A stretch of DNA of 63,724 bases, filler included, from Welwitschia mirabilis (GCA_051453625.1; 4 parts of one record of this genome joined end to end with filler, not necessarily neighbours in it), one strand, 5' to 3'; counted from the whole stretch's first letter, positions 1 through 60,325 are shown. Numbers and translations: made by a program. Notes: a model not told the origin generated them from the letters alone.

Positions 1-2149
1 ATGTAAGATGAAATACAACAGTTCAAGAGAAATAATGTTTGAAAGCTAGTAGAAAGGCCAAAAGATAAAAATGTCATTGGAATTAAGTGGATTTTTAAAA
101 ATAAATGTGATGAAGAAAACAATGTCATTAAAAACAAGGCAATATTATTAGCACAAGGCTATAATCAATTAAAAGGCATTGATGTAGGTGATACTTTTGT
201 TTCTATTACAAGGCTAGATAGCATCAGAGTCCTTTTGTCTTTTTTATCCTATAAAAAATTTAAAGTTTATCAAATGGATGTGAAGAGTGCTTTTCTAAAT
301 GATACTTTAAATGAAGAATCCTATATAGAATAACCACAAGTTTTTATTAATCCTCATAAAATCAATCATGTGTATAGACTTAAGAAATCGTTGTATGAAC
401 TGAAACAAGATCCAAAAGCTTAGTATGAGAAGCTAGCCAACTTTTTAAATAAAAATAGATATATTCATGGAACTGTAAACAAAACCTTATTTATAAATAA
501 CTTCAAAAAGGATTTTATTATTATACAAATTTATGTAGATAATATTATTTTTGGTGCCTCAAATAAAAAAGTTGTCAAAAGAATTTTCAACTATTATGAC
601 AACTCATTTTGAAATAAGTATGCTAGATAAAGTATAAATGTTTCTTAGACTATAGTTCAAATAATTTAAAGATGGGATATTTATTTTTCAATTCAAATAT
701 GCAAAAGATTTAATAAACATTTTGGATTAGAAAATGCAAAAACAACTTACACCTCTAGGTTTATATCATATAAAGTGTGTTTAGATGAAATTTATAAACT
801 AGTGGATCAAAATATTTATAGAAGTATAATAGGTAGNNNNNNNNNNNNNNNNNNNNNNNNNNNNNNNNNNNNNNNNNNNNNNNNNNNNNNNNNNNNNNNN
901 NNNNNNNNNNNNNNNNNNNNNNNNNNNNNNNNNNNNTTTCAAAGTTTATCAAATGGATGTAAAGAGTACTTTTCTAAATGGTACTTTAAATGAAGAAGTC
1001 TATGTAGAGCAACCACGAGATTTTACTAATACTCATAAAACTGATCATGTATATAGACTTAAAAAAGAATTGTATGGATTGGAGCTTAAATATGAGAAGA
1101 TAGCCACTTTTTTAAATGAAAACAGATATATTTATAAAACTATAGATAAAACCTTATTTGTAAAGAATTTTAAAAAGGATTTTATTATTATACAGATTTA
1201 TGTAGATGATATTATTTTTGATGCCTCAAATAAAAATTTATTAAAAGAATTTGCAATTATTATAACAACTCATTTTGAAATGGGTATGCTTAGTGAAGTA
1301 AAAATTTTCTTGAACTATAGGTTAAGTAATCAAAAGATGGGATATTTATTTCTTAATTCAAATATGCAAGAGATTTAATCAAATATTTTGGATTAGAAAA
1401 TGCAAAAACGACTAGCACTTCTGTGTCTACATCATGTAAAGTAAGTTTAGATGAAAATGGTAAATCAATGGATCAAAATCTTTACAAAATAATGACAGGT
1501 AGTTTATTATATTTGACTGCAACTAGACCAAATATTATGTTTAGTGTTAGAGTATGTGTAAGGTATCAATCTCGACCAAAAGAATCACATCTATAAGTAG
1601 AAAAAGAATAATCAGATATGTAAAAGATACATGTGATTATGACTTATGGTATCCTATAGAAAAAGCACAAGTGAAAATTATAAGTTTTAGTAATACAGAT
1701 TGGGCTAGTTGTAAAAATGATAGAAAAAGCACAAGTGGAAATTATTTTCTATTAGGTTTATGTTTAGTAGGATGGATAAGTAAGAAATAAAACTCAATCT
1801 CTCTCTCAACTATTAAAGCAAAATATATTGTAGCAGGTAGTTGTTGTACTTATATTTTGTAGATAAAATAAATCCTAAAGGATTTCAGTGTTAATTTTGA
1901 ACAAGTCCCTATCTTTTGTGATAACACCAGTGTTATAAACATATTAAAAAATCCTATTCAGCACTCAAGAACCAAACATATTAAGCTAAAGCATCATTCA
2001 TAAGAGATCAATTAGAAAAAGGGCACATCTATATGAACTTCATGAGTACATATCAATAGCTGGCAGATATTTTTAATAAACCCCTGAATTTTAATATTTT
2101 TCTTCATCTCAAAAATAAAATGGGGGTTATTTTGTAATCCTATGGCTAA
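1..2149 (+). pseudogene. pol: Copia reverse transcriptase-RNase H with many stops and frameshifts; RT segment duplicated across gap 837-936
   Basis: ORFs 953-1378 (MDVKSTFLNG...YVDDIIF) and 1554-1790 (DWASCKNDRKSTSG); sequence from 937 repeats ~257-836 with divergence. Confidence 0.92.
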
Positions 2150-2911
2150 TTGCAAGACAGTCAACTGGATCCTTAATTTGGTTAACCAGATGCAATCAAT
2201 TAACTGCAAGAAGCTCAGTTTCCTAGACCAACTTAGTTCTATAGGTCCTTCAATGAAAGCTGACAATGTAAGATGGAAGTTTTTTTTATCAAATAACAAT
2301 TGTATTATATGTTTTCATCTTTTTATATTGATTATTTAATTATGTTTTTTCTATGTGCTTTTATTCTCTCCTTTATCATTGATGTTAAAAGGAGGATAAT
2401 TATTTATTTAATATTTGTTGCTTATACTTTCAAATATAGTATGCTCTTGATGAGAACTTTTACTTTGTAATGCTTGCATATGTTTAATGAAATCAACATG
2501 CACTTAGTTCTATATTTTTAATTGGTATTTTAAATCCTTTTTGTGTAATTCATATAAGCTTGACATTTTTCCAATGATAAATATTAATGTTCTAAATGGT
2601 TAACCCATATATTCAAATGTTGTTATTACATATTGAAAATAAACTTTGAAAAGTGTCAATGATCAATATGTTAAATGCTTTATGTAATCACATTATGCTT
2701 TGTATAAAATTTATGTTCTTAACTCTCTAAATTTACCCCTTAAATTCGTCTTAGCTTTGCAAAAAATTTGACTATTCAAAATGTCTTAAATTAATTTCAA
2801 AAGATTAAATACTTTGTAAAGAATAATAGGCATTTTATGAGGAGAAGTTCTCTAAGTCCTAAATATTTTTACAACTAATTATTATTTTCCATTAATGTCA
2901 AGGAGAGATAT

Positions 2912-4372
2912 TATTAGATTAAGTTTTATTACTTGATGTTAAACTAATGTTTTATGTACGCCAAATTTTGTTTATCAAGTGCAGAAAATGTTAATCACTT
3001 AGAAGTTTAATGATGAAGCTAAAACCATTAATTTTTTTATCACTAGAGATCTATTAAATTTAGTTATACTTTTAAGGCATCGACTAGACTTACAAGGGGT
3101 CGACCATACCTAAAGTAAAAACTTAGAAATGAACTAAATTCAAATGGGTCAATTAAATTTTTGATGGAGTCAACTGGACTATGATTTTAAGAGCTAATAT
3201 CCCTAAACCGAATGGCAAGTGGTTAATCAGATCTTTTATGAGATCAACTAGATCTGTGAACCTGAGAAAAATACTTCTGAATCAATTATTAAGGGGTTAA
3301 CTAGACTATTTAAGAGGTCAACCAAACCTAAGCACTATGTAGCTAATACCCCTAAGCCAATTGTCATAGAATCGATTGGACACCTAAAGGAATCAATCAA
3401 GCTTGATGTAAAAAATTAGAATGATCTTTTATCAAGACTAAAGGGTGACTGGATAGAATTATAGTCAACCAGATTAGGGTTAATTAGACCCTAAGGCATT
3501 GAGACGTGAAGCCATAAGAAATTAAGATGATTAAAAATTTCACTTGAGTGACCTATGTAAGTTACAACACCAAATAAGGTCAACCAAACTTGAAACAGAA
3601 GTAAAATTTTCTATTTATTTTATATCTATTATGTATTCATTAGATAGTTATTTTCTAGCTATTTATAGACATTAGAAGTGCATGTTCAAATGTAATAAAC
3701 TCTAAAAGCCTTTCAATATAAATAGCCAAGAGAAATATGCCTAAAATACTTTTCTTTTTTACTCATGAAATAGTATTGAAATCTTGTGATATTCACTATT
3801 GAATCTTGGCATTTGTACTCTTGATCATGGAAGATCTATCATCTGAGTTATTTGTACATTCAAGGTTAGATCTAGTGCTTTATTTATTCTACTATCTATA
3901 GGAGAAGAGCTCCATCAAATTCATTATACCAAAGAATGAGTGGTATTTGTGCATTAAGGCATTCTTACCACCACTACGACATCTTCTGAAGGTTGAGACT
4001 GAGCCTACAAAAGTTTGGTTGGAAAGGTTGAAACTTAGCCTATAAAAGTCCATTTGTAAAGGTTATAGGTAAACCTACAATACCTAGAATAGTTAACAAA
4101 GATCCAAATTAATATTGGGAATAAGTTGATCATCAAGAGTGGAGTAGGGGATTTCTTTAACCATTATAAAATCCTATGTGCATCTATTTAGTATTTTATG
4201 CTTTTTGTTAGTTTTATTACTTTGATTACTTTTAGTTTTTCTTTATATGCATAATTTTATTATCAAATTATTTTGATCAAGATTTTGGTATATCATGAAT
4301 TGTTAGTTCATTTTATTTAATTATTATTTAAAAGAAAAACTTATTCACTCCCTAAGATTCTTGATCCTATCA
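2912..4372 (+). repeat. SIRE-1 3' LTR (starts TA, a decayed TG; ends CA)
   Basis: Follows PPT AAGGAGAGATA; TATAAATA at 3717; homologous to LTRs at 28001-29321(-) and 57680-59163(+). Confidence 0.85.
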
Positions 4373-6450: not shown

Positions 6451-6906
6451 GATCTCTTATTCAAGATTTCTAATTAACCTTAATATTGGCTTTGGTATTA
6501 TTTAGATGCTATCATCACAAAGTGCACTTGATGTGAAGCCTATGGATAACTAAGAAGTAAGTATCTTAGTCATAACATAAATTATTCTATCATAATATTT
6601 AATCTTATCATGTTAATTACAATGTAATGTAATAAAGATAATTAATAAAATTAAAAAATTAATGCTTTAGATATGAGTTGGTTAATGCAAAATAGAGTAG
6701 TAATAAATTATGAAAAGTTAATATCTAAATATTTTTGAATTTCATAACATGTAGTTAGATGTCTTAAGATCTTTATGTATCTTGATTCCTAGGAATGAAT
6801 TAATCTAACCAGGGTAAAATATCATATCCTATATTTTATAAATCTTATTTAATTAAATATTAATTATCTTAACTCCCAGGAGTAAATCATTCTAAGTTGG
6901 AGAGAA

Positions 6907-19760: not shown

Positions 19761-19999
19761 ATCTATAAAGATGTGGCTCAATCCACTCATAATTACTAAT
19801 CCTATTAAGAAAAGTTTTTCATTGATTTTGGTCTCAATGCTATGGGGTTTCCATAGTCACAAGATAATTGACAATGTCAACATGTCAAAGAGTAGGATGA
19901 GAATAAGAGATAGTGTACAGTTGTTTAATTATAAAGAGTTACTCATCAGAAAAAGAATCATTACTAGGATTTTCATCAGTGAAGCAAGTAATTCGAAAC

Positions 20000-25789: not shown

Positions 25790-27934
25790 CAAAGGATAAT
25801 GTACAAAAATCCAAATTACTTTTATGAGGAATAAAATGATTACCAGAATCGAGCTTATATCATAATTAATAAAAAAACATTTAATTTTATCACTATCTTT
25901 CCTAAAATGTTGATCTTCATGTACTGATTGATCTAGAGTTTCAATATCTAAACTATAAGCATTATCAACACGTTTTGCACAAAAAATAATAGCATTTATT
26001 TTCTCATTTTCAACTATACATTTAGATTTATCAAAGATNNNNNNNNNNNNNNNNNNNNNNNNNNNNNNNNNNNNNNNNNNNNNNNNNNNNNNNNNNNNNN
26101 NNNNNNNNNNNNNNNNNNNNNNNNNNNNNNNNNNNNNNNNNNNNNNNNNNNNNNNNNNNNNNNNNNNNNNNNNNNNNNNNNNNNNNNNNNNNNNNNNNNN
26201 NNNNNNNNNNNNNNNNNNNNNNNNNNNNNNNNNNNNNNNNNNNNNNNNNNNNNNNNNNNNNNNNNNNNNNNNNNNNNNNNNNNNNNNNNNNNNNNNNNNN
26301 NNNNNNNNNNNNNNNNNNNNNNNNNNNNNNNNNNNNNNNNNNNNNNNNNNNNNNNNNNNNNNNNNNNNNNNNNNNNNNNNNNNNNNNNNNNNNNNNNNNN
26401 NNNNNNNNNNNNNNNNNNNNNNNNNNNNNNNNNNNNNNNNNNNNNNNNNNNNNNNNNNNNNNNNNNNNNNNNNNNNNNNNNNNNNNNNNNNNNNNNNNNN
26501 NNNNNNNNNNNNNNNNNNNNNNNNNNNNNNNNNNNNNNNNNNNNNNNNNNNNNNNNNNNNNNNNNNNNNNNNNNNNNNNNNNNNNNNNNNNNNNNNNNNN
26601 NNNNNNNNNNNNNNNNNNNNNNNNNNNNNNNNNNNNNNNNNNNNNNNNNNNNCCTGAGTATTTAACCTGAAGTTATCGGCTTTGAGTACTTTGCACTTTT
26701 CTTCTACTTCCTCCTTTTCTTTTGTGATGGTCTTCACTAATTTGTTCAATTCATTGATTCTTTTGGCAAGCTTTTTACATTCTTCACACAACTCTTAACA
26801 TGTTTTTTCTAACTCATCTTCCTCCTCATCAATCATATGTAAGTCATCTAATGTTGAAGTACTAAGCACATTCTTGAGAGATGATACTAGGGCTATGAAA
26901 GATAATCTCCTTTCTCTATCTGATCCATGATCTGAGTAGTTTTCTTGATCTTCATCATCATCATTATCCTAAGTTACCATCAATGAGGTGTTTTTAGGCT
27001 TCTTTCATTCTCTTCTAGTATTGGGACATTTGTTGGCCGTATGTCCAAATCTTTGCACAAATAGCACTAGATTTCCTTTCCCTTATCTTGTTATCTTCTT
27101 TGTTTTGGATTTTTTTTCCTTGGATTCCTGCTTAGTTCTCCTTCCTTTTTTCTATAGAGAAATCTTTTAAAATTTTTAGCTAGAAAAGCTACCTCATCAT
27201 CATTAAGTTCTTCATCTGATCTATTAGATCTTTAATCCTCTTGTACACAATTCAAAGTAATACCTTTTTTTCTATCTTTAGTGAATTTAAGTTCATATGT
27301 TTAAAGGTTATTTTAAAGTTCTTCCAATGCTATTATATTAATATTTTTGCTTTTTTTTAATGGCTGTTACTTTCAGTTCAAATCTCTTGGGTAGGAATCT
27401 CAGCACTTTCCTTACCATTTTTCTTTCTTTCATATGTTCTTTGAGGTTTGCCATTAAGTTTACTATATCTGTAAGTCTAGCAAAAAATTCCTACAAGATT
27501 TCTTCATCATCCATATAAATGTCTTTAAATTTAGAAATAAGCATTAGTGGTTTTGATTATTTAACAGTGGATGTTCCTTCATGTGTAACTTCCAAAATAT
27601 CCCAAGCTTCTTTTACATAATTACAGTTTACAATTCTTTTAAATTTATCTTCACACACTGCATACAAAATAGCGTTAAGAGCATGGGTATCTATTATGGC
27701 TTTGGTTTTATCTGTAGGAGTCCATTAGTCTCTAGATTTGGGAACCAAGATAGTATTTCTATTTGCATCTATCTGGGCTATCATAGATATAATATGATCT
27801 TTGTAAATAACCTCTTCTACATTGGCATCTAGTGATATAAGAAAAATCCTCATCCTGGCTATTCAATAGGAATAGTTTTAACCATCGAACATGGGTGGAT
27901 TACCAATTAAAAATCCATTAATTAGGTTACTCAT
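25790..27934 (-). pseudogene. gag: SIRE-1 gag (UBN2-type, CCHC knuckle) plus protease-distal region fused to an RNaseH-like tail
   Basis: MSNLING...PPMFDG*NYSY*IARMRIFL; frameshifted knuckle CYLCK/FGHTANKCP at ~27020-27070; IFDKSKCIV...KRVDNAYSLD at 25790-26038. Confidence 0.85.
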
Positions 27935-29965
27935 TTTTAGGTTTCTTAAGTTTAGATATGTAAAAATCTCTCAAAGACTAACCTATTATCTGATACTAAA
28001 TGATAAGATCGAAAATCCTAAAGCGGGAGGGGTGAATAAGTTCTCTTCAAAAACTTTAAGCTCAAAACAACTTAATAAAATCTAATCACAGATTTCTTAT
28101 AAACAAATAGTAAAATCAAGACCATGGATACAAAGAATGAGTATAAAAAAAATAAAATGTAAACCATAAAATAGAAACTATCAGTTTAGATGTACGTAGG
28201 ATTTATAGTGGTTCGAGAACTCCACTACTCCACTCTCGACAATCAGCTTTTTCCAAGCTTGATCTCTGATCTTTGTTACTTCATAGGTTTTATTAGGCTC
28301 ACCTATTAATCCTTATAAGAATAGTTTTACAGGCTAAGTCTCAACCTTAATAACAGACGTTTTTAGGCTAAGTCTCAACATTTGACAACGGACTTTTATA
28401 GGCTAAGTCTCAACCTTTGAAGACAAATAGAAGTAATGAAATAAAGCCTTTATAGCTCTGATCTCACTTATTCAGTATCAGTACATAGAATGAATCTCTT
28501 ATCCAAATGAATACAGTGATGAAGTCCTTAGATCTGATTTTGAGTGACGTCCTAATCCAAGAATAGATCTCCTCAATTAGATATAAATCAATACAAAAGA
28601 TATTCCAATAAAATATACTACTTGATCTTTTGAATTCACAATGAATATACTAGTTTTGAAAATCTGCCAAAAAGATCTTTAGGTCATTCTTTGCCTAGGT
28701 ATTTATAATGGAGGGTTACTAGGATTTGATACGATTAAATTGCACCTTCAATGGCTATAAACAGCTAGAAAATGGCTAGGTAATGGCTAGGTAATAGATA
28801 CATAACATCTACAAGATTTACTTTTCTATACTGTTCTGTCGATCTCACAAATATCCAGTTGACCCCATCAGAACTTAGTCGACCCCATCCTGGGTCCAGT
28901 TGATCCCTTGTCTCTCAGTTTGGGACTATGAACTTTGTCAGCTTCTCAGGTTTGATTGATCCCTTTCCTTTCGGTCTGGGACTTGCCTGTCAGCTCCTCA
29001 AATCTAGTCGACTCCACAAATATCTGATCGACCCCATTCCTCTTGATCTGGGACTATTAGTTCTTGAGATCACAGGTCCGGTTGACCCCTTCATAATATG
29101 GTCAACCCCTCTAGGTTCAGTTCATTTTTGTTATCTTCTTTAGATGCGGTCGATACCTCTAGGATCCCACTAGAAGTAAACATAATTAAGTAGTTTCTTT
29201 CATGTATTTTAGTTTACATCTTTCACTTGTATAACTCAAACTCATCTACACACAATATCTAATAAATTTACACTATACTAAAGGAATTAGTTTGATATCA
29301 ATTGGTAAATATAATCTAATAATCTTCCCCTTTAACATTGATGGTAAATAATTTAGTGATTTCAAAGATTTAAATAATTTAAACTCATTTACTAAATGTT
29401 TTTAAGAACACATTAAAAAGTCAAAAAGCTCCCCTTTATATCAAGACATACACATATGTAAGAAAAAGGTAAGATAGGTAATATTTTTTCCTCCTTTAAC
29501 TAGATAGCATAAGATCTTCAAAAATTACAATAAAAAGAGAATATTGAATTGAATATTGAATTGAAAGAACTACATATTCTCTTTCCCTTTGACATCAATG
29601 GTAAATAATAATCACATTTAGGCACTTTGAAACATATTCTTCTCCTATGTTTTTACCAAATGATAAATAATGATAATCCAAAAATTTTTAAAACATATCG
29701 AGGCATTTTTAATAGACAAATTGTGCTTTTAAATGAGACAATCTTGAATATGCACAAATTCTACCAAGATTACTGATCAAAACAACACTTATGAATTACA
29801 TATTTAAATGATATCATTTGAGAACAAACTATAATACCAAATGATAATGTAAAATATGATAAAAAAATTTTAACTTATTTTTTCTTGAGATGATAATTTT
29901 AATTTTGTTCCAAAGAATATAGCACTCAAGAATATCAAAATAATGCAAGGATTAAGCTCAAACAT
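25790..29965 (-). mobile_element. SIRE-1 tandem: 3' multi-PPT region of one unit, shared LTR (28001-29321), PBS, then gag-PR of a pol-less unit
   Basis: PPT AAAGGGGAAGAT abuts LTR start 29321; LTR end ...GATCTTATCA at 28001 is followed by PBS TTTAGTATCAGATA; gag starts at 27934. Confidence 0.85.
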
Positions 29966-44705: not shown

Positions 44706-46382
44706 ATGAAAGGTAACAAGAACCTCTAGAGGAAAGGAAAAAACATTATAATAATCAAGATCACAATATGAACCATAATTCTATCATGAGGTAGCATAAA
44801 GAAGATTTAGAACTTGGGCTAGAAATTTAGTTATTGCAGAGTGAATCCTTGGATTTCAAAAGAGGTATAGAGATAAGCTCATGAGTTATTTTATTTATCT
44901 TGAATGAAAAACAATAGTACAACTTGTTCAACATGTTTATGATCTAATGGTAAAAAAGTTCTATGCTAATATACATAAAATCGATGATAGTATATGTTCA
45001 TTTCAAACTCAGATTAGAGGCATAAATTTACACATTCTTCTAAGTTTTATTAATTTATTACTTGGCATAGATGACACAAATAATTTCATATAGTTATAAG
45101 CATTCATTTAAAGAAATATTCAATTCTAGAGTTATCAATGTGTCTCGGCATCAAATAAGAAATGTTTTATTTGGGAATAGTAGAATAAACTTTGTTAAAG
45201 ATATTGAGAGAAAAGATATGACACCTAATGTATCAATTCTTAATTCCATAACATTTCCTAACATTTTAATTAGAGGAGGTAGCTACAGTTACTGCAAATC
45301 CATATACACTTTCATTATATATTATTTACTCAATGGTTTATAGATAGATTTGGGTTTTGTTTTATGTATGAATATCATCTCATTATTTCACAAGGAGCAA
45401 AGCTTGGATCATCCTTATCTTATTAGTCTAATCATTAGCAATGCAAATATTTCAGTGTCATAACTCAACCTCATCTGTTAATAGAAACTATTAGTAGAAT
45501 TTAATGAAAAATGAAGAGCACCAGTGATACTAGGTAAGGGTATAAGTAGGAGGACGCCTCAGTATCAAAGATCATTTTCCACTACTACTTATAGCTCTTT
45601 ATTGGTAAAAAATGGATTAAAGATAATTACAGAAATGGTTAACAAATTAAGAGTAATCTTTTAAGGCTAAAGAAACATAGATCCATTGTAAGTAAAGGTC
45701 AGATACCAATAGAGAGTTGGAAATCCATGAAAGAGGAGGATTTAGAAAAAGAGGAAGCAAGACCTTTAGCTCCATTTGGCACAAGCTATAACTTAGATAG
45801 AATAGTAGATAATAAATCTTTAAAATAATCTTTTAGAGATGAGACATAAACTCATAAGGAGTACTAGACTCCTATAGAGGTACATGTGCAAGCGGATTAA
45901 TAGGCTCCAAATCCTTTGTAATATAGGCCGACACAGTAGAAGATAGAATTTGAGAGCTTAGATGCACTGCCTATTATCTTTCATCATTCTCATTGAAAAA
46001 TTCAATGTTGTCATCCTACACAGCCACCGTCACCACCATGTATACCTTCTCCACCTTTAGTCCCTTACCACTACCTTCCCATATAAAACCAATGCAAGTA
46101 GAACCACGTTCATATATGTAGTTATCATAATCCTTTATAGAGACTATCATAACTAGTTGCTTTAGTACCTTTATCACTTCTAAAATATATTAATGCATAA
46201 GGATACATACCTTTAAGGGCCCTAACAAAACATCCTAGAATCCCTCTAATAAGAGGCACACTTTATCTCCTACCTCCTCATCATTATATACCCAGCCAAC
46301 CTCTACTATCCTTGGTAGTAACAATAGTGATGAAGAAGACCAAGGTGAGAATTACATAAGTGATTTAGCTCTTAGTCACTAG
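44706..46382 (+). pseudogene. SIRE-2 env-like ORF (putative plant transposon protein type) with Pro-rich C-terminal part
   Basis: VYDLMVKKFYANI...SFQTQIRG...INLLLG; NILIRGGSY...FIIYYLLNG..IDLG; HPTQPPSPPCIPSPP; lies between pol end and PPT. Confidence 0.75.
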
Positions 46383-52454: not shown

Positions 52455-52535
52455 ACTCCAAATTCTTATTTCAAAATTTGAATATATTCATATGAATAAA
52501 GAAGAAACATTGTAAGAATTTTTTGCTAAACTTAC

Positions 52536-53103
52536 TGTTGCGATGCCAACTTAAGTGTATTTGTTAAGGTATTTTGAGTTGTTTTACAGATAAACTAATA
52601 GATAAATGCCTAGTTTCTATGACAATTGATAATATAGGAACATAAGATGAAAACATGCAGTTTATCAGATAATTCATAAAGATTTTCTATAGATATTGAT
52701 AAATTGTATTTTCAAATGATTATTCCAGCAAACAACCAGATATCACACTACCAAAGAATGAGTAGAAGACTGTCGTCCCCTATGTCATCCAGACGACAGT
52801 CAGGATGACAACCCTAATTGGACAGATGAAAAACTTAATTCCAGATAGCTTGCAGTTGAAGTGAAGGTCTTATTAATAGACTCCATCATCCACCTCATCG
52901 TCCAGATGACATAAGTGGATAACATCTCCAATATCAGTTGATAACAATTTACATGAAGATCACAGATAGTTAAACTAGAAGCAAACTAAGATAACTTATT
53001 GTAAAATCCTGTTGTCTCCTCCATCGTCCGGACGACCACTTGAACGACACTGTTATCCCATACTTTTACAGATTGTATTCCTGAGTTGTTGCTTGTTAAT
53101 TGC
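52536..53103 (+). repeat. 5' portion of an Athila-type LTR inserted in SIRE-1 gag (same LTR start again at 55329-55403)
   Basis: Starts TGTTGCGATGCCAACTTAAG, resembling Athila-A LTR start TGTTACGATGTTAATTTATG; interrupts gag at GCTAAACTTAC; carries GTCGTCC/GACGAC motifs. Confidence 0.75.
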
Positions 53104-56025
53104 NNNNNNNNNNNNNNNNNNNNNNNNNNNNNNNNNNNNNNNNNNNNNNNNNNNNNNNNNNNNNNNNNNNNNNNNNNNNNNNNNNNNNNNNNNNNNNNNN
53201 NNNGATACCCAAGAGATTTGAACCGAAGATCATAGCCATCAAAGAGAGCAAAAACATAAATGCAATGGCACTGAAAGTACTTCAAGATAATTTACAAACC
53301 TATGAGCTTAAATTTATTAATGATAAGAAAAAGGTATTGCTTTAAAATGTATGCAGGAGGACTATAAATCTAATAGATCAGATGAGGAATTTGATGATGA
53401 TGAAGTAGCTCTTCTAGCTAGAAGGATCAGAAAATTTCTTCATAGAAGAAAGAGGAAAGAAAATTAAGTAGGAATGCAAAGAGAAGTCATTCAAAACATA
53501 GAAAGAAGAAAAAAAATGATAAAAAGATTCAATGTTATTCATGCAAAGGATTTAGTCATATGGCAAATAAGTGCTCAACACAAAGAGGAATAGCTAAAAA
53601 TCAAAGAATCCCTTATTCATTGCTACATGAGATAACAAAGATGATGATGATGATGATGAAAACTATTCAAATCAAGAATCAAACAGAGATAGAAGGTTGT
53701 CCTTTATGGCATTTATGCCATCGCTCAAAAATGTTCTTAGTACATCAATGCCTTATGATTTGGATATGATCACTAAAGAAGAGGATGATTAAAAAACACA
53801 TATCAGTAGTTGTATGAGGAATGTAAAAAGCTATCTAAGAGGATAATTGAGTTGATCANNNNNNNNNNNNNNNNNNNNNNNNNNNNNNNNNNNNNNNNNN
53901 NNNNNNNNNNNNNNNNNNNNNNNNNNNNNNNNNNNNNNNNNNNNNNNNNNNNNNNNNNTGTTATTCATGCAAAGGATTTAGTCATATAGCAAATAAGTGC
54001 CCCAACACAAAGAGGAATAGCAAAAAATCAAAGAATCACTTATTCATTACTACATGAGATAACAAAGATGATCATGATGATGAAAACTATTCAAATCAAG
54101 AATCAAACAGAGATAGAAGATTGTCCTTCATGGCATTTATGCCATCGCTCAAAAATGTTCTTAGTACATCAATGCCTGATGATTTGGATATGATTAATGA
54201 AGAAGAGGATGATTAAAAAACACATATCAAGAGTTGTATAAGGAATGTAAAAAGCTATCTAAGAGGATAAATGAGTTAATCAAAACAATGAAGACTATCA
54301 TCAAAGAAAACAAGGAATTGGAAGAGAAATACAATGTGCTAAAATCTGACAACACCAACCTAATGTCTTAAGAAAAAGGTCTTTCTTTTTTTTGTTAATA
54401 AATTCTTTAGTAGCTCTTTTAAATTAGAACAAATTCTTAGAGTACGAAAACCAACTAGAGATAAGTCAAGTATTGGCTTTAGTTCGTAAAAATATCAAGA
54501 ATAAGTAAACTGAAAGAGTAAGTATGCTTTCAATATTTCATGTAATTTTTGTGGTAAATTTGTTTATTCAAAGCCTTTTTCTAGATTTACATATTTAATG
54601 CTTTTTTCTAAAACTAAAAATACTTCACCTTTTAAATTTATTTCTAAGAAAAGTGTATCACATAAGTCTAATAAGATTAAGTGGATTAGATCTAATAATC
54701 TTTAAAGTTTTCTAGCACAGATAACTCTCATAAGAATAAGTACAAATAGTTAGTATCTAGGTAGTGATTGCTTAAAGCATATGTCAAGAGAAAAATCGAG
54801 CTTTCAGTATTTGAAAAGTATAAATAAAGGAGAATTCTTTTGTGAAAAAAATAAAAGGTCAAAGATAAAAGGTATAGGATGCATCAAGGGAGGTATGTTG
54901 TCTAAACCTGATGATGTGCTTTATGTAAATGGATTAAAACATAATTTATTAAGTATTAGTCAATTATGTGACAAATATCACAAAGTAATCTTTAAAAAAT
55001 TGAAATGAAATGTTGTAAATGAGAAAACAAATATTCCTATCTTTTATACAAAATAAGTGAATAATGTTTATAGAATAGATACTACATTGATTGATCAGTT
55101 ATTTCATGCAAACTATGATGTTAGGCTAAATCTTGATGAAAATGAATGTTTTTTGGTGAATTATGATGTAACACCTCATGTCTATAATTCAATTATCAAT
55201 CATAAAAATAATTTGGGGGTTCAGTCATTATTTCTTAGCTAATTGTAGGTTGATCAACTACATCTATGATTTGGTCAACTAGATGTGGTCAGTCGACTAG
55301 CCTAAAAGCTCGGTCACCTAAACCCCTTTGTTGCGATGCCAACTTAAGTGTATTTGATAGGGTATTTTGAGTTGTTTTGCAGATAAACTAACAGATAAAT
55401 GCTNNNNNNNNNNNNNNNNNNNNNNNNNNNNNNNNNNNNNNNNNNNNNNNNNNNNNNNNNNNNNNNNNNNNNNNNNNNNNNNNNNNNNNNNNNNNNNNNN
55501 NNNATGTTTATAAAATAGATATTAAATTATTCGATCAGTTATTTCATGCAAACTATGATGTTAGCCTAAATATTATTGAAACTAAACATTTATTGGAGAA
55601 ATCTAATGTAAAACCTAATGTCTAAAACTTAATTATTAATCATGAAAATGATCTGGGAATTCAGTCATCATCCCTTGGCTTATTGTAGGATGGTCGACTA
55701 TATCTATAATTCAGTTAACTAGATATTATTGTTTAACTAACCTGAAAGCTCAGTTACCTAGACCTTTTTTGTTACTATAGATTTGCATCTCGCAGGATCA
55801 ACCAGAATCTTGAGTGGTTAATTGGACCAGAGGGATCATAATGCAGAAGTATCATTGATGAACCCAATTTCTTTCTTTATTTCGCCCTATTTCTCATAGT
55901 CTATAAAATAAAGAGAGCCTTAAATTGATTTTGTTGTATTCTAGCCCTCTCTAGCTCTCAGATCTAGCATTTTTGTTTTAAAATCTAGAGGTTTGCTTTC
56001 AGATCTTACTTGCAAGAGTCTTAAA

Positions 56026-57065
56026 ATGTTAGAAAGCTCATCTAGGAAAAGAGTAAAGGAGGCCATCTCTAGGGATCCTGCTTTCTTCTACTAAGGAATG
56101 TTAGAGGAAGATGTTGATAAGTTTACTAAGAAGTTTGAGAAGAAGATGTGCCAAGAGTAGTCTGTAATCACTTCAAAGCTCAAGGAACTCAGAGAAGTTA
56201 TCCAACTCTTAAGAGATTAAGATATTGACCATTTCTAAGATGTTTTTGATTTAGCTTATCCTTTTCTTACTAGAATGTTTTATTGTAATGCTTTTTTTGA
56301 TCTGATACTAGAACCCTTGAAACACTCATTTTGAAAAAGCATATAAGAATGATAGTAAATCTTATTTCAGAACTGACTGACCTTCCAAAAGGGGACTATG
56401 AAGAGTTTTAGCCTCTTTAGAACACCATGGAAGACAAGCTTGCTATTTCCAGAGAGCTTTGTAGTAAGGTTTATATTTGGAATCACACTTTATCTACTTC
56501 TTTGTTAACTCTAAAATACCACTTTATTCATTTGATTTTCACCTATAACTTCTTACTCTTGACTGGCCATGATGATGAAGCCTCCCACTATCAAGCTTAT
56601 TTGATGTATTTGGCAGGGACTAATCATTCCATTAATGCTTCTACCATAATATTGAAGAATATGATTTCACAACTAGAGTATCACAGAAATAGGGCTTTAC
56701 CCTATACTCTATGCTTATCATAAGCATTTATCACCATTTTCATATTACCTTTTACTCAAAATTGGAGACCCTCCAACCTATGGCACTAATTAGGTGTGCA
56801 ACCCTATCTCACATGCATATTTTTGTCCCTTCTAAAAAAATCTTTAAAATCTCCTTCTCTAAAGGTATCCTCTTCTAATGAGACCCTCTCATATCTGAGA
56901 TAGATTGACTTCCGTATCAAACACATGAAGGAAGTCCTTATTACAGCTGATTATAATATTATTAACACCTTAGCAGAGGCCACCAGTTTAGCTCACACAG
57001 CAAGTGAAGAAGAAAAGTCAGAAGAGGACCATGAAGAAGAAGAAGAAGAAAAGGAGTCTAATTAA
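56026..57065 (+). pseudogene. SIRE-1 env-like ORF with acidic tail
   Basis: MLESSSRKR...AYPFLTRMFYCN...LKYHFIHLIFTYNFLLLTGH...RALPYTLCLS...EEDHEEEEEEKESN*; includes ORF 56427-56723. Confidence 0.78.
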
Positions 57066-57679
57066 ATTTTTCAAATTATATTTTGTGTTCTCTTCTTTGT
57101 CATTAATGTTAAAAGGGGAATAATTAGTTGTGTGTATTATTTATGATTTCAATTGTATGTTCAAATTAGTTGTGTATTGTTTATGATTTAAGTTGCTCTT
57201 GATGAGCACTTCTAGTTTGTAATGCTTGTACTTTTACTTTGTAATGTTTGCTTATATCTTATGAAATGAACTTTTCTACTTCAGGACAAAATCTTGTTTC
57301 ATATAATATCCTAAATCTATTTGTGCTTTTTAAAATCATAAATGCTAAATATATTTTTCTTTTGGTATCTTAAGTGCCTCTCTTGAACAGATAAAATCTT
57401 CTAACATTGGAAATAAATTTCACATTGTGACATCTAATTCAAGGTTAAATACGTTTTACATGATCACATTATGTTTATCATAAAGTTATGCCCTTTTANN
57501 NNNNNNNNNGCATATTAACTTGCTTTATTTAGAGCATAAAATTTATTTGTTCAAAATGCTTTTACTTATTTCAAATGGAATATTATTTTGCAAATAGGCA
57601 TTTTGTAAGGGGGAGTTTTTCTAAGATTTCAAATTTTTCACAACTTATATTTTTTGCCATTAATGTCAAAGGGGGATAT

Positions 57680-59163
57680 TGTTAGATTATGTTTTAACAA
57701 TTAATGTTAAACTAATATTTTCTGTATAGCAAATTTTATTTATCTTATGCAGAATATGTTAAATTACTTATAGGTCCAAAGATGGAACTAAAATGATCAA
57801 ATTCTAAGCACTAAAAACCTATTAATTTACTTACCCTCAATATGGGGGTGACTAGATTTTCAAGAGGTTGACCGCACCTAAAGCAGATAGAAAAATGAAC
57901 TACATCTAAAGGGGTCAATCGAATTTTGATGAGGTCGACTAGACCTGTAACCTAGAAAAATAGTGTCCTTGAACCGAATGGAAAGGGTTCGACTAGACTT
58001 TTATGAGGTCAACTGGATTTGAGAACTTGAGAAATAGTACTCTTTGACTGAATGATAAGGGATCAACTAGACCTATGATGGGGTCAACCGGACCTGAGAA
58101 CTATATAGCTGATACGCCTGAACTGATTATCATGGGGTCGACTCAACACTTAAAGGGGATGACTAAACTCAATGTAGGAAACTAAAAAGAGATTTTATCA
58201 AAAGATTAGGCAACTAAATGAATAGCAAGTAACCAAATAGGGGTCAACCAGACCTAGATGGAATCGACCAGATAGGGAGCCATAAGAAATTGGGGTGACT
58301 GAATTTCTCACTTAGGTAACCTGTGTAACTCACAGCACCACACAGGATTGATTGGAGTTTTATGGGGTTGACCAAATAGAGTGGAAATAAAAATTTTAGA
58401 AATGTTATGTAGCCATCTGATAGTCGTTTTCTAGTTGTTTATAGCCATTGGAAGTGCATTTCATATGTAATAAACCCTAAAAGCATTCCATTATAAATAG
58501 TTAAGACATAGATGACCAAATAATTTTTTGGAACTATTTTTATTGGTAAAAATCTATTAGATCTGAAAGATCAAGNNNNNNNNNNNNNNNNNNNNNNNNN
58601 NNNNNNNNNNNNNNNNNNNNNNNNNNNNNNNNNNNNNNNNNNNNNNNNNNNNNNNNNNNNNNNNNNNNNNNNNNNNNNNNNNNNNNNNNNNNNNNNNNNN
58701 NNNNNNNNNNNNNNNNNNNNNNNNNNNNNNNNNNNNNNNNNNNNNNNNNNNNNNNNNNNNNNNNNNNNNNNNNNNNNNNNNNNNNNNNNNNNNNNNNNNN
58801 NNNNNNNNNNNNNNNNNNNNNNNNNNNNNNNNNNNNNNNNNNGAAAAGTTCATTCTAAATTTTACAGGTGGATCTAAAATACTTGATGGAGTAACAAAGA
58901 TCCAAGATCTAGCTTGAGGATAAGTTGATCATTGAGAGTGGAGTAAGGGGTTCCCTGAACCACTATAAATATGACTTGCATCAAATTGGTAATTTTGTGC
59001 TTTCAGTTTCTATTTCCTTACTTTTATTATTTTCTCTTATTATGCACTTTCTAGAGTACTTTATTTTTGTATGCAATTTTTTTCTAGATTAGATTCATTT
59101 AGAATATTTGTCAAATTTTTTAAAGAATCTACTCACCCCCCTCTAGGATTCTCGATCCTATCA
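57680..59163 (+). repeat. SIRE-1 3' LTR (TG...CA)
   Basis: PPT AAAGGGGGATA then TGTTAG; TATAAATA at 58492; end ACTCACCCCCCTCTAGGATTCTCGATCCTATCA. Confidence 0.9.
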
Positions 59164-60325
59164 ACATGGATAGAAGATGTAGGGCTGACAACAATACATG
59201 GATACATGTGGCACATGGTGTCATCCCTTATGTTATTTTCATGATATGTAGGATGACAACACTGCTAAAATGGATAGAAGCTATAGGGCTAACAGCAGGG
59301 CATGTAGGCATGTGGCACATGGTAATGTCCCCTATATCATCCTAATAACAAGTGGGACAATAGCTATTTTTTCATGTTCGGAAGAAATATCTTTGAAAAT
59401 GGGGTCAAGTGATCCATGTGGATTATCAGGATTTTGTTTTCCACCTTTAGGATTTTGCTTCTAGAACCTCAAATGCAAACCTTTAAATACCCTTTCCCTC
59501 ATTTATTTCTAGGACATCTTTTGTACCTAATACTTGTGATAGAGGATTGAAGGGTAAGATGTCCATCTAGAGCTATAGAAAGGAGTCTCCTTGGTGTTAG
59601 GCTAAGTTTCTTTCATTGAGGTGCTATTATTCTGTTTGTAAGTGGATGTTATGTTTTGAATACTTTTTGAATTAATATAATTTCTCTTTTCATTTCAATT
59701 CTGTGAATGTTCCTTATGTTTTACATTGATCATAATTTATTATAACAACTCTATGATTTATCTAGATCATAAGGGTAGCCTTTGTTAAAATTGATCTTGA
59801 TTAGTAGTAGATTTTCTATTCCATTTCAATTCCATATTGCATATTACATGTTTTTACTTGGATATATCTCGAAGTTTATATTGGCTAAGAACTACTTATA
59901 TGCTCTTCTTAATTGATATGAGTTATAGAGAAGGTAGTCTTTGTAACACAAGGACTAAGATCTAAGTAGAATCCATTTCAATTTCCATTCATTGCATTTT
60001 CATATCCATCCATATTGCATTGCTTTTNNNNNNNNNNNNNNNNNNNNNNNNNNNNNNNNNNNNNNNNNNNNNNNNNNNNNNNNNNNNNNNNNNNNNNNNN
60101 NNNNNNNNNNNNNNNNNNNNNNNNNNNTTATAGAGAAGGTAGTCTTTGTAACACAAGGACTAAGATCTAAGTAGAATTCATTTCCATTTCCATTCATTGC
60201 ATTTTCATATCCATTCATCTTGAATTGAATTTGCATTATTATTTACTTTTAATATTAAAAGACAAAAAACTAAAAATACCTTTGGAAATCAATTCTCTAA
60301 CTCTAAGTCTAGTGCCTTCATTGGG
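59164..60325 (+). repeat. Internal part of an Athila-A-related LTR
   Basis: 59440-60325 aligns to the reverse complement of ~24620-25330; ~104-bp tandem duplication at 59166-59365. Confidence 0.78.

What the first reader, a model, noticed from the sequence alone, without database searches (positions are those of the whole stretch)
53959..57498. Possible bipartite Sirevirus system: pol-less/env-plus partner reciprocal to the pol-plus/env-less copy at 1-4372
Seen: in contigs 53959-55403 and 55504-57498, gag-PR runs through NNVYRID straight into ...INHKNNLGVQSLFLS*. This aligns with the RNaseH end of the pol-plus copy (LHLKNKMGVIL*SYG*, 2100-2149), and the next ~90 nt are also homologous (2150-2230 vs 55243-55325). 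IN, RT and nearly all of RH are therefore missing, yet a ~1-kb env-like ORF follows. The copy at 937-4372 has no gap, carries RT-RH, and goes from the pol stop to the first PPT (~2388, matching ~57111) in ~240 nt, so it lacks env. Both forms share LTR and 3' UTR. Known: non-autonomous LTR elements mobilised in trans exist (e.g. BARE-2, TR-GAG) and env-like ORFs are optional in Sireviruses. Inference: the family may have split its functions across two mutually complementing genomes. Only one pol-plus copy is visible, so its env loss could be a private deletion.
Basis: partly seen in the sequence, partly recalled or inferred. Interest (0 to 1): 0.8.

Follow-up and report, generated by a model that had tools for sequence, protein, structure and literature searches.

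The report
Decayed pol-deleted Sirevirus retrotransposon copies
These are dead copies of an abundant plant LTR retrotransposon that lost its integrase and reverse-transcriptase genes in one fixed internal deletion but kept gag, protease and an accessory gene; this is an ordinary helper-dependent element, not a shown two-part system.

Summary
The sequence-level observation holds. Three of three contigs that cover the stretch after protease (B1 53959-55403, B2 55504-57498, C 26038-25811 minus strand) jump from just after protease to the last ~21 codons of RNase H. About 850 codons are missing: integrase, RT and RNase H.

Single reads and contigs from four public runs cross the same junction, so it is not an assembly artefact.

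The span is a scaffold composite of paralogous contigs that are 78.5-93.6% identical where they overlap. It is not one element.

The "env-like ORF" (56026-57065) is not open. It has 9 stops and at least one frameshift. It is a decayed Pfam Transposase_32 (PF20167) accessory ORF.

Non-coding hallmarks place the family with ENV-class Sireviruses. Read depth shows it is high-copy and old.

Gag diverged under purifying selection between two pol-less copies (pN/pS about 0.3).

The reciprocal "bipartite" reading is not supported. It rests on one dead pol-plus copy that still has the motif boxes reported only for env-bearing Sireviruses. LTR identity between the two forms is about 70%.

Best reading: a helper-dependent deletion derivative, similar to Giselle or TR-GAG elements but also keeping protease and a 3' ORF. 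Interest is low to moderate.

The parts
53204..53858 (+). Contig B0: C-terminal half of gag with a CCHC zinc knuckle. It is a paralogous copy, 93.6% identical to 53959-54282.
   Evidence: blastn; tblastn with copy C gag; translation
53959..54353 (+). Contig B1: gag C-terminal part, with stops and one frame change.
54541..55080 (+). B1: second CCHC-like motif and protease. Pol_BBD lies at 54754-54975. The alignment runs to the first residues of the pre-integrase domain, and there are 4 in-frame stops.
   Evidence: Pfam Pol_BBD E 1.5e-10 and 1.1e-12, 48.6 bits; tblastn to P0069 623-839 and P0066 448-640
55081..55169 (+). B1: about 30 codons of unassigned origin between the last clear pre-integrase residues and the deletion junction.
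   Evidence: No significant similarity to the RNase H part of copy A left of 2079; conserved in B2 and C
55170..55242 (+). B1: the junction and the last ~21 codons of pol (RNase H C-terminus) with the stop codon.
   Evidence: 65.5% identity to A 2079-2239, z 17; reads crossing it, joints
55243..55328 (+). B1: post-pol linker with a repeated-motif (RM) box at 55273.
55329..55403 (+). Start of the LTR of another, very high-copy element nested into B1. It is not part of the family.
   Evidence: depth 4093 and thousands of loose ends at 55329/55403; second copy at 52536-52609, 94.6%; reading
55504..55781 (+). Contig B2 (a different copy): unassigned remnant, the same junction (~55610-55614), RNase H tail and post-pol linker.
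   Evidence: 77% to B1; 65.9% to A, z 19.6
55782..56025 (+). B2: leader of the 3' cassette, absent from copy A. It holds an RM box at 55816.
56026..57065 (+). B2: decayed accessory ORF of 346 codons, related to Transposase_32 (PF20167). It has 9 stops and at least 1 frameshift near 56297.
   Evidence: Pfam 19.7-25.1 bits, E 8.6e-4 to 1.9e-5, below the cut-off of 45; 4 of 5 library hits are PF20167 above cut-off; alignment A2
57066..57679 (+). B2 and the next contig: linker with three polypurine tracts (~57111-57121, 57608-57615, 57670-57677). An inverted repeat lies around the last one (57653-57664 / 57700-57711).
   Evidence: motif definitions from PMC2829016
57680..59163 (+). 3' LTR of copy B, with an assembly gap at 58576-58842. 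It has RM boxes at 57933, 58007, 58082 and 58242, and a C-rich signal before the end.
1..836 (+). Contig A0: RT (RVT_2) of a pol-plus copy, 81.5% identical to 938-1502.
   Evidence: Pfam E 3.5e-43
938..2137 (+). Copy A: RT and RNase H to the pol stop. Four HSPs lie in three frames and there are internal stops, so the gene is dead.
2138..2911 (+). Copy A: post-pol linker with an RM box at 2180, then 97 nt without a match (2240-2336). Homology to B2 resumes at 2337, which corresponds to B2 57059. PPT-like tracts lie near 2387, 2840 and 2901. There is no 3' ORF.
2912..4372 (+). Copy A: 3' LTR, 69.8% identical to the B LTR over 1016 nt.
28001..29965 (-). Copy C: linker with PPTs (29965-29322) followed by the LTR (29321-28001) with RM boxes.
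25811..28000 (-). Copy C: PBS-like site (27995-27987), gag from 27934, an assembly gap (26652-26039), the end of protease, and the same junction and start of the RNase H tail (26038-25811).

Best explanation
The finding covers parts of at least two or three decayed copies of one abundant, old, non-autonomous LTR retrotransposon family.

STRUCTURE
The family is an internally deleted derivative of an ENV-class, Sirevirus-like Ty1/copia element. One fixed deletion of about 2.6 kb removed most of the pre-integrase domain, integrase, RT and RNase H. The following parts remain:
- the LTRs and a tRNA-Met-type primer binding site;
- gag and protease;
- the last ~21 pol codons and the post-pol motif boxes;
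- a ~350-codon 3' accessory ORF of the Transposase_32 family;
- the multiple polypurine tracts.

HOW IT WORKED (inferred, not shown)
Such an RNA has every cis signal for packaging, priming and integration. It could make its own Gag. It needed integrase and reverse transcriptase in trans from pol-bearing relatives with compatible LTR ends, PBS and PPT. Copy A's family, or full-length relatives not seen here, could have supplied them.

STATE OF THE COPIES
Every copy in the window is now dead. The env-less copy A is most simply an ordinary variant or a secondary loss, not an obligate partner.
For: STRUCTURE
- The junction is in 3 of 3 window contigs that cover it, and 0 of 3 continue into integrase.
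- No integrase match of this family was found anywhere in the window with 7 reference polyproteins.
- Tail homology to copy A has z 17-19.6.

NOT AN ARTEFACT, AND MULTI-COPY
- Reads and contigs switch collinearly from B1 to B2 across the junction. Joint 55188>55634 is shown by 9 reads in X14, 1 read in X15 and 1 contig in X2. Neighbouring joints are shown by contigs of X1 and X2.

ABUNDANCE AND AGE
- From a 1.94-Gb read sample, summed depth is 357-1536 over gag-protease, 251-891 over the 3' ORF cassette, 225-311 over the linker and 436-2455 over the LTR.
- 43623 of 58757 laid reads are under 90% alike and only 539 are 99% or more (X14; X15 is alike).

SIREVIRUS-TYPE CIS MOTIFS
- The terminal PPT plus attachment site matches 11 of 12 in B and 10 of 12 in C.
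- B has three PPTs in its linker, and an inverted repeat around the last one.
- All 13 RM-like boxes found (0.2 expected) lie in the LTRs or post-pol linkers of A, B and C.
- A PBS-like site and a C-rich signal near the LTR end were read.
- The definitions come from PMC2829016.

THE 3' ORF
- 4 of 5 library hits are PF20167 above Pfam's cut-off.
- The N-terminal length matches P0004 (87 vs 86 residues) and both have an acidic tail.

GAG SELECTION
- pN/pS is 0.36 [0.26-0.49] for B0 vs C (150 codons) and 0.28 [0.18-0.41] for B1 vs C (95 codons).
- On the same nucleotide alignments the coding phase gives 0.27-0.33 and the two wrong phases give 0.98-1.19. Non-coding controls give 0.59-1.07.

KNOWN KIND
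Gag-retaining non-autonomous LTR elements with autonomous partners are well documented:
- PMC5738225, passages;
- PMC11302176, abstract;
- preprint 10.64898/2026.03.01.708851, passages.
Against: - No single contig links gag to the 3' ORF. The family structure is inferred from overlapping paralogous contigs.
- No full-length pol+/ORF+ relative was seen, so the parent of the deletion is hypothetical.
- Mobilisation in trans is inferred, not shown. No RNA or insertion-polymorphism data were examined.
- The selection signal in gag could have arisen in autonomous lineages, if the junction arose more than once or if recombination moved gag between forms. B's LTR aligns better with pol-plus A (1016 nt at 69.8%) than with pol-less C (385 nt at 66% plus 124 nt at 74%), which fits either of those.
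- The end of protease plus the remnant shows no codon-position pattern between B1 and C: mismatches are 20/16/14 and the ratio is 1.24 over 58 codons. The wrong-phase controls there are noisy (0.45-0.53).
- The Pfam match of the ORF itself is below the curated cut-off.
- RT-tree placement in the SIRE clade was not tested.
Confidence: 0.75

Rival explanations
1. Bipartite (mutualistic) system. The family split its functions between a pol-less form that supplies Gag, protease and the 3' ORF protein, and a pol-plus form that lacks the 3' ORF. Each form depends on the other, and there is no full-length element.
For: - Both forms are present in one window and share LTR termini, PPT arrangement and post-pol boxes.
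- B's LTR is closer to A's than to C's.
- The indel between A and B2 is a clean cassette that ends at the ORF's stop codon.
- The pol-less form is abundant and its gag was under selection.
- A precedent exists for complementary defective retro-elements: endogenous pararetroviruses in Oryza (PMC5491270, section 8).
Against: - Only one pol-plus/ORF-less copy was seen, and it is dead.
- It keeps a linker RM box, which was reported only in ENV-bearing Sireviruses.
- There is no evidence that the 3' ORF is required.
- Shared non-coding regions are 65-70% identical, not near-identical.
- ENV-plus and ENV-less Sireviruses commonly coexist.
- The absence of full-length elements is untested.
Confidence: 0.07
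2. The fixed junction is an exon-exon junction. On this reading, pol-less copies are reverse-transcribed copies of a spliced subgenomic gag-protease RNA of full-length elements. Drosophila copia removes a ~3-kb intron in this way. Such copies may arise repeatedly, rather than forming one old lineage.
For: - The same breakpoint occurs in copies that are 23-31% diverged.
- The deleted segment (from after protease to near the pol end) matches the layout of the Drosophila copia intron described in PMC5580714 (passages).
- Ty1/copia splicing around protease is conserved in Arabidopsis (same paper).
- B's LTR is nearer to pol-plus A than to pol-less C, as recurrent origin predicts.
Against: - No donor or acceptor could be read. 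No contig shows the donor side, and the acceptor region in A is decayed.
- The remnant upstream of the junction shows no coding constraint between B1 and C. This fits a free-running pol-less lineage better, though the sample is small.
- No RNA data were examined.
Confidence: 0.15
3. The 3' ORF cassette (55782-57058) is a later acquisition from another element type, such as an Athila-like Ty3/gypsy element, rather than the ancestral env-like gene of this Sirevirus family. Copy A would then show the original state.
For: - The only paper found that names PF20167 in a retrotransposon reports it in a 3' ORF of a sunflower Athila element (PMC11728184, passages; search).
- 0 of the 120 listed copia polyproteins nearest to copy A's RT carry PF20167.
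- The indel has clean borders.
Against: - RM boxes sit upstream of the cassette in B1, B2 and also in A. This is the position reported for ENV-bearing Sireviruses.
- Cassette depth equals gag depth, so it is a family-wide part and not a private capture.
- Separate ORFs would not show up in polyprotein predictions anyway.
Confidence: 0.15
4. Assembly artefact: the junction and the ORF linkage are chimeras made by a short-read assembler in repeats.
For: - The scaffold has 33 gaps.
- It strings paralogous contigs together.
- In copy C, the linker-LTR-PBS order may be a collapsed path.
Against: - Three independent contigs share the junction.
- 150-nt raw reads and contigs from four runs under two organism labels cross it.
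- B2 alone holds the junction, the ORF and the first PPT in one contig.
Confidence: 0.03

Closest known systems
RLC_Giselle (non-autonomous) with RLC_Inga (autonomous), barley Ty1/copia; also RLG_Sabrina and RLG_WHAM (PMC5738225, passages read)
   Same: An LTR element that lacks reverse transcriptase and integrase but keeps a gag region. It shares the PBS and LTR ends with a pol-bearing relative, is high-copy, and is thought to be cross-mobilised.
   Different: Here protease, the last pol codons and a 3' accessory ORF are also kept, and the breakpoint is a single fixed junction. The partner is not identified, and all copies seen are dead.
TR-GAG elements (Coffea, Arabidopsis, Triticeae) and GAG/PROT-only families of sugar beet (preprint 10.64898/2026.03.01.708851, passages)
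   Same: Terminal repeats plus gag (and protease) without the enzymes. 28 of 115 sugar beet non-autonomous families are of this type.
   Different: The TR-GAG definition is under 4 kb. This family is estimated at ~7 kb and carries a further ORF.
ENV-containing Sireviruses such as SIRE1, Hopie, Osr10 and Inga (PMC2829016 and PMC3414828, passages)
   Same: - the PPT octamer with an AT/TG attachment site;
- several PPTs near the 3' LTR;
- an inverted repeat around the terminal PPT;
- palindromic repeated boxes in the LTR and upstream of the 3' ORF;
- a tRNA-Met PBS and a C-rich signal at the LTR end;
- a sense ORF between pol and the PPTs.
   Different: Those elements are autonomous, with integrase, RT and RNase H. 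Their ENV-like proteins are described by transmembrane and coiled-coil features. Here the ORF is a Transposase_32 relative with no clear membrane segment.
RLG_Quinta / RLG_Cereba of wheat centromeres (PMC11302176, abstract read)
   Same: A long-lived non-autonomous partner that contributes Gag and is cross-mobilised. The authors describe the pair as mutualistic.
   Different: It is Ty3/gypsy, and the autonomous partner there is complete, so the dependence is one-sided. No 3' ORF is involved.
Complementary non-autonomous endogenous pararetroviruses ePVCVL / ePVCVL2 in Oryza (PMC5491270, section 8 read)
   Different: They are pararetroviruses, not LTR retrotransposons. Their shared regions are 97-99% identical with proven recombination, against ~65-70% here. 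No autonomous partner was found there after a genome-wide search, which could not be done here.
Drosophila copia spliced gag RNA and plant Ty1/copia shGAG RNA (PMC5580714, passages)
   Same: Removal of the segment after gag and protease gives an RNA that makes the structural protein in excess. In Drosophila the ~3-kb intron leaves an RNA that ends in the 3' LTR, with the same layout as the pol-less copies.
   Different: Those are RNA isoforms, not genomic copies. No splice sites could be read here.
Athila 3' additional ORF with partial Transposase_32 similarity in sunflower (PMC11728184, passages)
   Same: A sense ORF between pol and the 3' LTR with PF20167 similarity.
   Different: That element is Ty3/gypsy and this one is Ty1/copia. 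Identity of the window ORF to any library protein is at most 35%.

Membership tests
Sirevirus (Ty1/copia, Pseudoviridae) | Ty1/copia coding domains: gag, protease, RVT_2-type RT and RNase H. | tested here: met
   RVT_2 E 3.5e-43 in copy A; Pol_BBD E 1.1e-12 in B1; gag matches to P0069/P0081 in C. Integrase of this family was not seen in the window.
Sirevirus (Ty1/copia, Pseudoviridae) | Terminal PPT octamer followed by the AT/TG attachment site (12-mer), from PMC2829016. | tested here: met
   B 57670-57681 matches 11 of 12 and C 29331-29320 matches 10 of 12, both exactly at the linker/LTR border. Copy A has a decayed version. The count alone is not above chance (4 matches vs 2.0 expected).
Sirevirus (Ty1/copia, Pseudoviridae) | Several PPT copies clustered in the linker near the 3' LTR. 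| tested here: met
   B has three tracts (~57111, 57608 with the exact octamer, and 57670). A and C have two or three decayed ones.
Sirevirus (Ty1/copia, Pseudoviridae) | Inverted repeat whose left arm borders the terminal PPT and whose right arm lies inside the LTR. | tested here: inconclusive
   B: 57653-57664 / 57700-57711, 12 nt, 83% complementary. None was found in A, and the result in C is ambiguous.
Sirevirus (Ty1/copia, Pseudoviridae) | High-copy palindromic repeated-motif boxes in the upper LTR. In ENV-bearing members they also occur upstream of the 3' ORF. | tested here: met
   The pattern, allowing C>T and G>A decay, gives 13 hits vs 0.2 expected. All 13 lie in A, B and C LTRs or in post-pol linkers (2180, 55273, 55816). 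The CGG-CCG core itself has decayed.
Sirevirus (Ty1/copia, Pseudoviridae) | 5' LTR end CA, a 5-nt spacer, and a 9-nt tRNA-Met PBS. | tested here: inconclusive
   Only copy C shows a 5' junction. The PBS matches 7 of 9 and the spacer 3 of 5. The 16-mer search with up to 3 mismatches missed it and found one unrelated site.
Sirevirus (Ty1/copia, Pseudoviridae) | RT groups with the SIRE/Maximus clade in a tree. | not tested
   No lineage-labelled reference sequences were available. The nearest library polyproteins are 45-54% identical and generically named.
Sirevirus ENV-like gene | A sense ORF between pol and the PPTs with transmembrane and coiled-coil features. | tested here: inconclusive
   Position and sense are met. 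The hydrophobicity maximum is 1.83 over 19 residues, inside the conserved domain and interrupted by a stop, so there is no clear membrane segment. Coiled coil was not tested.
Pfam PF20167 Transposase_32 | Score at or above the curated cut-off (45 bits). | tested here: not met
   19.7, 22.2 and 25.1 bits in three scans of the decayed ORF.
Pfam PF20167 Transposase_32 | The nearest relatives in an all-protein search are family members. | tested here: met
   4 of 5 hits at E up to 1e-3 score 59.6-60.4 bits to PF20167. The fifth is low-complexity noise. The conserved core aligns without gaps.
Gag-retaining non-autonomous LTR retrotransposon (TR-GAG / Giselle type) | LTRs, PBS and PPT with gag kept, and integrase, RT and RNase H absent, in many copies of the same structure. 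| tested here: met
   The TR-GAG size limit of under 4 kb is not met (about 7 kb estimated from copies B and C).
Complementary (mutualistic) pair of defective retro-elements | Two classes, each fixed for the loss of a function that the other keeps, and no autonomous form. | not testable with these tools
   The pol-less class is fixed and abundant. The ORF-less class is represented by 1 copy. No genome is held, and the read tables were too truncated to count forms.
Complementary (mutualistic) pair of defective retro-elements | Unusually high identity or recombination of shared non-coding regulatory regions between partners. | tested here: not met
   LTR 69.8%; tail plus linker 65.5-65.9%. Decay of both copies weakens this test.

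The most novel reading that the evidence does not exclude
An ancient pol-less Sirevirus lineage persisted through ~30% sequence divergence with its own gag under purifying selection, keeping protease and a Transposase_32-type 3' ORF. It co-evolved with pol-bearing relatives that had shed that ORF. This would be a split-genome (two-component) LTR retrotransposon in a seed plant, comparable to the complementary endogenous pararetroviruses of rice.
Probability: 0.07. Interest if true: 0.7.

Novelty: new member of a known kind. Interest (0 to 1): 0.3.

Why it matters
If the ordinary reading holds, this is one more helper-dependent LTR retrotransposon family.
- It is useful for repeat annotation of a very GC-poor seed-plant genome. 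Pipelines that score only integrase, RT and RNase H would call it domain-free.
- It is a documented case of a Sirevirus-like derivative that keeps gag, protease and a PF20167 accessory ORF.
- The selection signal in gag between two junction-bearing copies suggests that such derivatives can be long-lived replicators and not only debris.

If the bipartite reading were true, it would be the first split-genome LTR retrotransposon. It would also give the unexplained 3' ORFs of plant retrotransposons a testable role.

Tried and rejected
TOOLS THAT WERE CLOSED OR GAVE NOTHING
- Search of the window's own genome: none is held.
- PDB profile search: 0 matches at E up to 1.
- P0004 against longer proteins: none at E up to 1e-5.
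- Profile A2 against the protein library: it found only P0004 itself.
- Six-frame Pfam scan over 15 kb failed on output size. It was replaced by a scan of 41 open frames of 70 or more codons.

ANALYSES THAT LED NOWHERE
- I had planned to count pol-plus versus pol-less and ORF-plus versus ORF-less forms from loose ends and joints. The tables were cut (13053 loose-end rows and 438 joints not shown), so no ratio could be taken.
- No joint that skips the ORF cassette is among the 15 shown, which proves nothing.
- A longer RNase H remnant (about 45 codons) that I thought I saw by eye was rejected. Left of A 2079 the nucleotide and protein scores are within shuffles (371, 223 and 346 of 500 shuffles, and 837, 449 and 978 of 1000 shuffles, reach them).
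- The PBS-like match at 45697-45712 has no LTR or gag context and is taken as chance.
- I first read 55329-55403 as gag. That was rejected: it is the start of another element's LTR.
- The linker upstream of copy C's LTR matches A and B only around the PPTs, so it says nothing about an ORF in that copy.
- RT A0 vs A1 gives pN/pS 0.51-0.54, but mismatches are flat over codon positions (28/28/27) and the wrong phases give 0.63-0.70, so there is no selection signal.
- Supplements of the papers cited could not be seen. Tables of element structures in PMC2829016 and PMC5738225 may bear on the comparisons.

Full report
SETTING

The window is a heavily gapped scaffold with 33 runs of N. It has 28.5% G+C, computed from the base counts. 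No whole genome is held for it.

It is a nest of decayed retrotransposons. Besides the family studied here there are:
- Ty3/gypsy pieces at 19372-20421 (minus strand) and at 31469-33095;
- an unrelated copia RNase H at 52452-51907 (minus strand) with a short linker;
- other LTR fragments.

The contigs that matter:
- A0: 1-836
- A: 938-11281; the element occupies 938-4372
- B0: 53204-53858
- B1: 53959-55403
- B2: 55504-57498, followed by 57510-58575 and 58843-60027
- C: on the minus strand, 29965-26653 and 26038-25790

CHECKING THE OBSERVATION

Coding domains. Copy A carries a Ty1/copia reverse transcriptase (RVT_2, E 3.5e-43 and 5.5e-25). It aligns with full-length copia polyproteins from the RT to their last residues (P0066 1042-1529 on window 1-2131). 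B1 carries the protease beta-barrel (Pol_BBD, E 1.1e-12, 48.6 bits). It aligns with P0069 residues 623-839. In that protein the pre-integrase domain is 819-883, integrase 898-1001 and RVT_2 1249-1492.

The junction. About 30 codons after the last clear pre-integrase residues, B1 becomes homologous to the very end of copy A's pol and to the ~100 nt after its stop.
- A vs B1: 108/165 = 65.5% identical, local score 41 against at most 19 in 300 dinucleotide shuffles.
- A vs B2: 110/167 = 65.9%.
- Left of A 2079 there is no similarity above shuffles.

So the pol-less form keeps about 21 pol codons and has lost about 850. The ~30 codons before the junction are unassigned.

The other two copies. B2 restarts inside the stretch already covered by B1 and is 77-78.5% identical to it across the junction. 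C is 69% identical to B1 from the end of protease through the junction, until its contig ends. So 3 of 3 contigs that cover this stretch have the junction, and none continues into integrase. Seven reference polyproteins found no integrase of this family in the window.

What the observation gets wrong.
- The span 53959-57498 is a chain of paralogous contigs, not one element. B0/B1 overlap at 93.6% identity and B1/B2 at 78.5%.
- B1 leaves the element at 55328/55329, where the LTR of another very high-copy element starts. The same LTR start interrupts a fourth gag fragment at 52462-52535.
- The "~1-kb env-like ORF" (56026-57065) has 4 + 5 in-frame stops and a frame change near 56297. Its longest open stretch is 100 codons.

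WHAT THE 3' ORF IS

Pfam gives only sub-threshold matches to Transposase_32 (PF20167): 19.7, 22.2 and 25.1 bits against a cut-off of 45.

A full HMMER scan of 1.84 billion representative proteins gave 5 hits at E up to 1e-3.
- Four of them (P0002-P0005, 24-35% identity) are PF20167 proteins above the cut-off.
- The fifth is low-complexity noise.

P0004 is a complete 357-residue transcript ORF. It has the same layout as the window ORF: 86 vs 87 residues before the conserved ..FYCN.. motif, then the domain, then an acidic tail.

There is no clear transmembrane segment and no PDB relative.

The only paper found that names this Pfam family in a retrotransposon puts it in the 3' ORF of a sunflower Athila (Ty3/gypsy) element (search; passages of PMC11728184). 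"Env-like" is therefore a statement of position only.

WHAT THE FAMILY IS

The non-coding hallmarks that define Sireviruses in PMC2829016 (passages) are largely present.
- Terminal PPT plus attachment site: 11 of 12 in B and 10 of 12 in C, exactly at the LTR border.
- Three PPTs in B's linker, one of them the exact octamer.
- An inverted repeat around B's terminal PPT.
- A decayed tRNA-Met PBS in C, and a C-rich tract about 20-30 nt from the LTR ends.
- A repeated box found 13 times against 0.2 expected. All 13 lie in the LTRs of A, B and C or in the post-pol linkers of A, B1 and B2.

[quoted passage not shown] Copy A lacks the cassette but keeps a linker box.

Relative to B2, copy A lacks 55781-57058 and has 97 unmatched bases instead. 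Homology resumes at the ORF's stop codon. Secondary loss in A is therefore the simpler reading. A gain of the cassette in B's ancestor is not excluded.

An RT tree with lineage-labelled references was not possible.

READS

Two raw-read runs (X14, X15; 1.94 Gb sampled from each) and Logan contigs of two runs (X1, X2) were laid on 53959-59400 at 80% likeness or more. The runs carry two coded organism labels.

Summed depth in X14:
- gag-protease: 357-1536
- the two junction bins: 357 and 122
- the cassette: 251-891
- the linker: 225-311
- the LTR: 436-2455
- the nested foreign LTR start: 4093

Depth here counts local matches, so it is only a rough copy measure. Even so, several hundred from a sample that can cover a single-copy locus only a few times at most means a high-copy family. 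The cassette is as common as gag, so it is not a private capture.

Age. 43623 of 58757 laid reads are under 90% alike and 539 are 99% or more. The family is old.

Junction. Reads and contigs switch collinearly from B1 to B2 across the junction. Joint 55188>55634 is shown by 9 reads in X14, 1 read in X15 and one contig in X2, and three neighbouring joints by contigs of X1 and X2. Further copies with the same junction therefore exist in independent data.

One in-frame stop. At one of the nine in-frame stops of the ORF, 293 of 302 and 261 of 269 reads (X14) carry another letter, so that stop is private to this copy. The cut tables say nothing about the other eight or about the frameshift.

The tables were too truncated to count pol-plus against pol-less forms, or ORF-plus against ORF-less forms.

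SELECTION

Gag. Between the two junction-bearing copies B and C, gag mismatches pile up at third codon positions (36/25/66 and 18/14/50).
- pN/pS is 0.36 [0.26-0.49] and 0.28 [0.18-0.41].
- On nucleotide alignments the coding phase gives 0.33 and 0.27, while the two wrong phases give 0.98-1.19.
- LTR and linker controls give 0.59-1.07.

The end of protease plus the remnant. This stretch shows no such pattern (20/16/14, ratio 1.24 over 58 codons). The controls there are noisy.

Interpretation. If the junction arose once, gag stayed under selection within the pol-less lineage. That is what one expects of a non-autonomous element that packages itself with its own Gag. This inference fails if the junction arose repeatedly or if recombination moved gag between forms. 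B's LTR is in fact closer to pol-plus A than to pol-less C.

The 3' ORF has only one copy in the window, so its selection could not be tested.

HOW IT MOST LIKELY WORKED

Shown:
- the anatomy;
- the copy number;
- the shared cis motifs;
- the past constraint on gag.

Inferred:
- transcription from the 5' LTR;
- translation of Gag and protease;
- co-packaging with, and reverse transcription and integration by, enzymes of pol-bearing relatives that recognise the same PBS, PPT/attachment site and LTR ends.

The origin of the fixed breakpoint is open. It could be a single deletion. It could also be reverse transcription of a spliced gag-protease RNA, the layout known from Drosophila copia (PMC5580714, passages). 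No splice sites could be read in these decayed copies.

COMPARISON AND VERDICT

Gag-retaining non-autonomous LTR elements with pol-bearing partners are well known:
- Giselle/Inga, Sabrina and WHAM (PMC5738225);
- Quinta/Cereba (PMC11302176, abstract);
- GAG/PROT-only families and TR-GAGs (preprint 10.64898/2026.03.01.708851).

This family is a new member of that kind. It is unusual in keeping protease and a PF20167 3' ORF, and in having Sirevirus-type motifs.

The criteria used there were:
- near-identical shared non-coding regions;
- recombination between partners;
- no autonomous form after a genome-wide search.

These are either not met here (65-70% identity) or could not be tested.

ENV-plus and ENV-less Sireviruses in one genome are common (PMC3414828). 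One dead ORF-less copy is too little to call a class.

HOST (AN UNVERIFIED LEAD)

The G+C of 28.5% and the excess of C>T and G>A among differences to the reads fit long-term deamination of methylated repeats. The nearest relative of the 3' ORF is a transcript labelled Welwitschia mirabilis. That genome is reported as exceptionally GC-poor (about 29%) and rich in non-autonomous LTR elements (PMC8275611, passages). This is consistent with a gnetophyte host but does not prove one.

Noticed in passing
window 55329-55403 and 52536-52609: This is the start of the LTR of another, extremely high-copy LTR element: depth ~4100 against a few hundred around it. In most reads a PPT-like tract precedes it. 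It is nested both into copy B1 and into a fourth gag fragment of the same family (52462-52535).
   Followed up: partly
window 29965-27987, minus strand: Copy C's LTR is preceded by a linker with PPTs and followed by a PBS and gag (internal-LTR-internal order). This is either a head-to-tail pair sharing one LTR or a collapsed assembly path through the two LTRs of one element.
   Followed up: no
window 53204-53858 vs 53959-54282, 55064-55324 vs 55504-55764, 259-836 vs 938-1502: Neighbouring contigs of the scaffold are overlapping paralogues (93.6%, 78.5% and 81.5% identity) rather than consecutive pieces. Scaffold order in this window therefore cannot be trusted inside repeats.
   Followed up: partly
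window 59164-60027 and 25417-24773 (minus strand): The sequence right after the end of copy B's LTR and the sequence after copy C's gap belong to one further repeat family (74.5% identity over 666 nt) with a TATA-like LTR layout.
   Followed up: no
window 19372-20421 (minus strand) and 31469-33095 (plus strand): Two Ty3/gypsy remnants: RT_RNaseH with Integrase_H2C2, and RVT_1 with rve. Unannotated open frames of 170 and 189 codons at 21605-23858 (minus strand) may be their gag region.
   Followed up: no
window 52452-51907, minus strand: RNase H of a different copia family, 38-44% identical at protein level. A purine tract follows almost directly after pol and there is no 3' ORF, so it is a 'classic' copia next to the Sirevirus-like copies.
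   Followed up: partly
whole window: G+C is 28.5%. Transitions dominate the differences between the window and the reads (C>T 449 and G>A 480, against at most 139 for any transversion type, in X14). This is consistent with long-term deamination of methylated repeats.
   Followed up: partly
window 56026-57065: A Transposase_32 (PF20167) ORF sits in the env position of a Ty1/copia element. The only paper found that names this domain in a retrotransposon reports it in a Ty3/gypsy Athila element, so the same accessory domain may be shared across the two superfamilies.
   Followed up: partly
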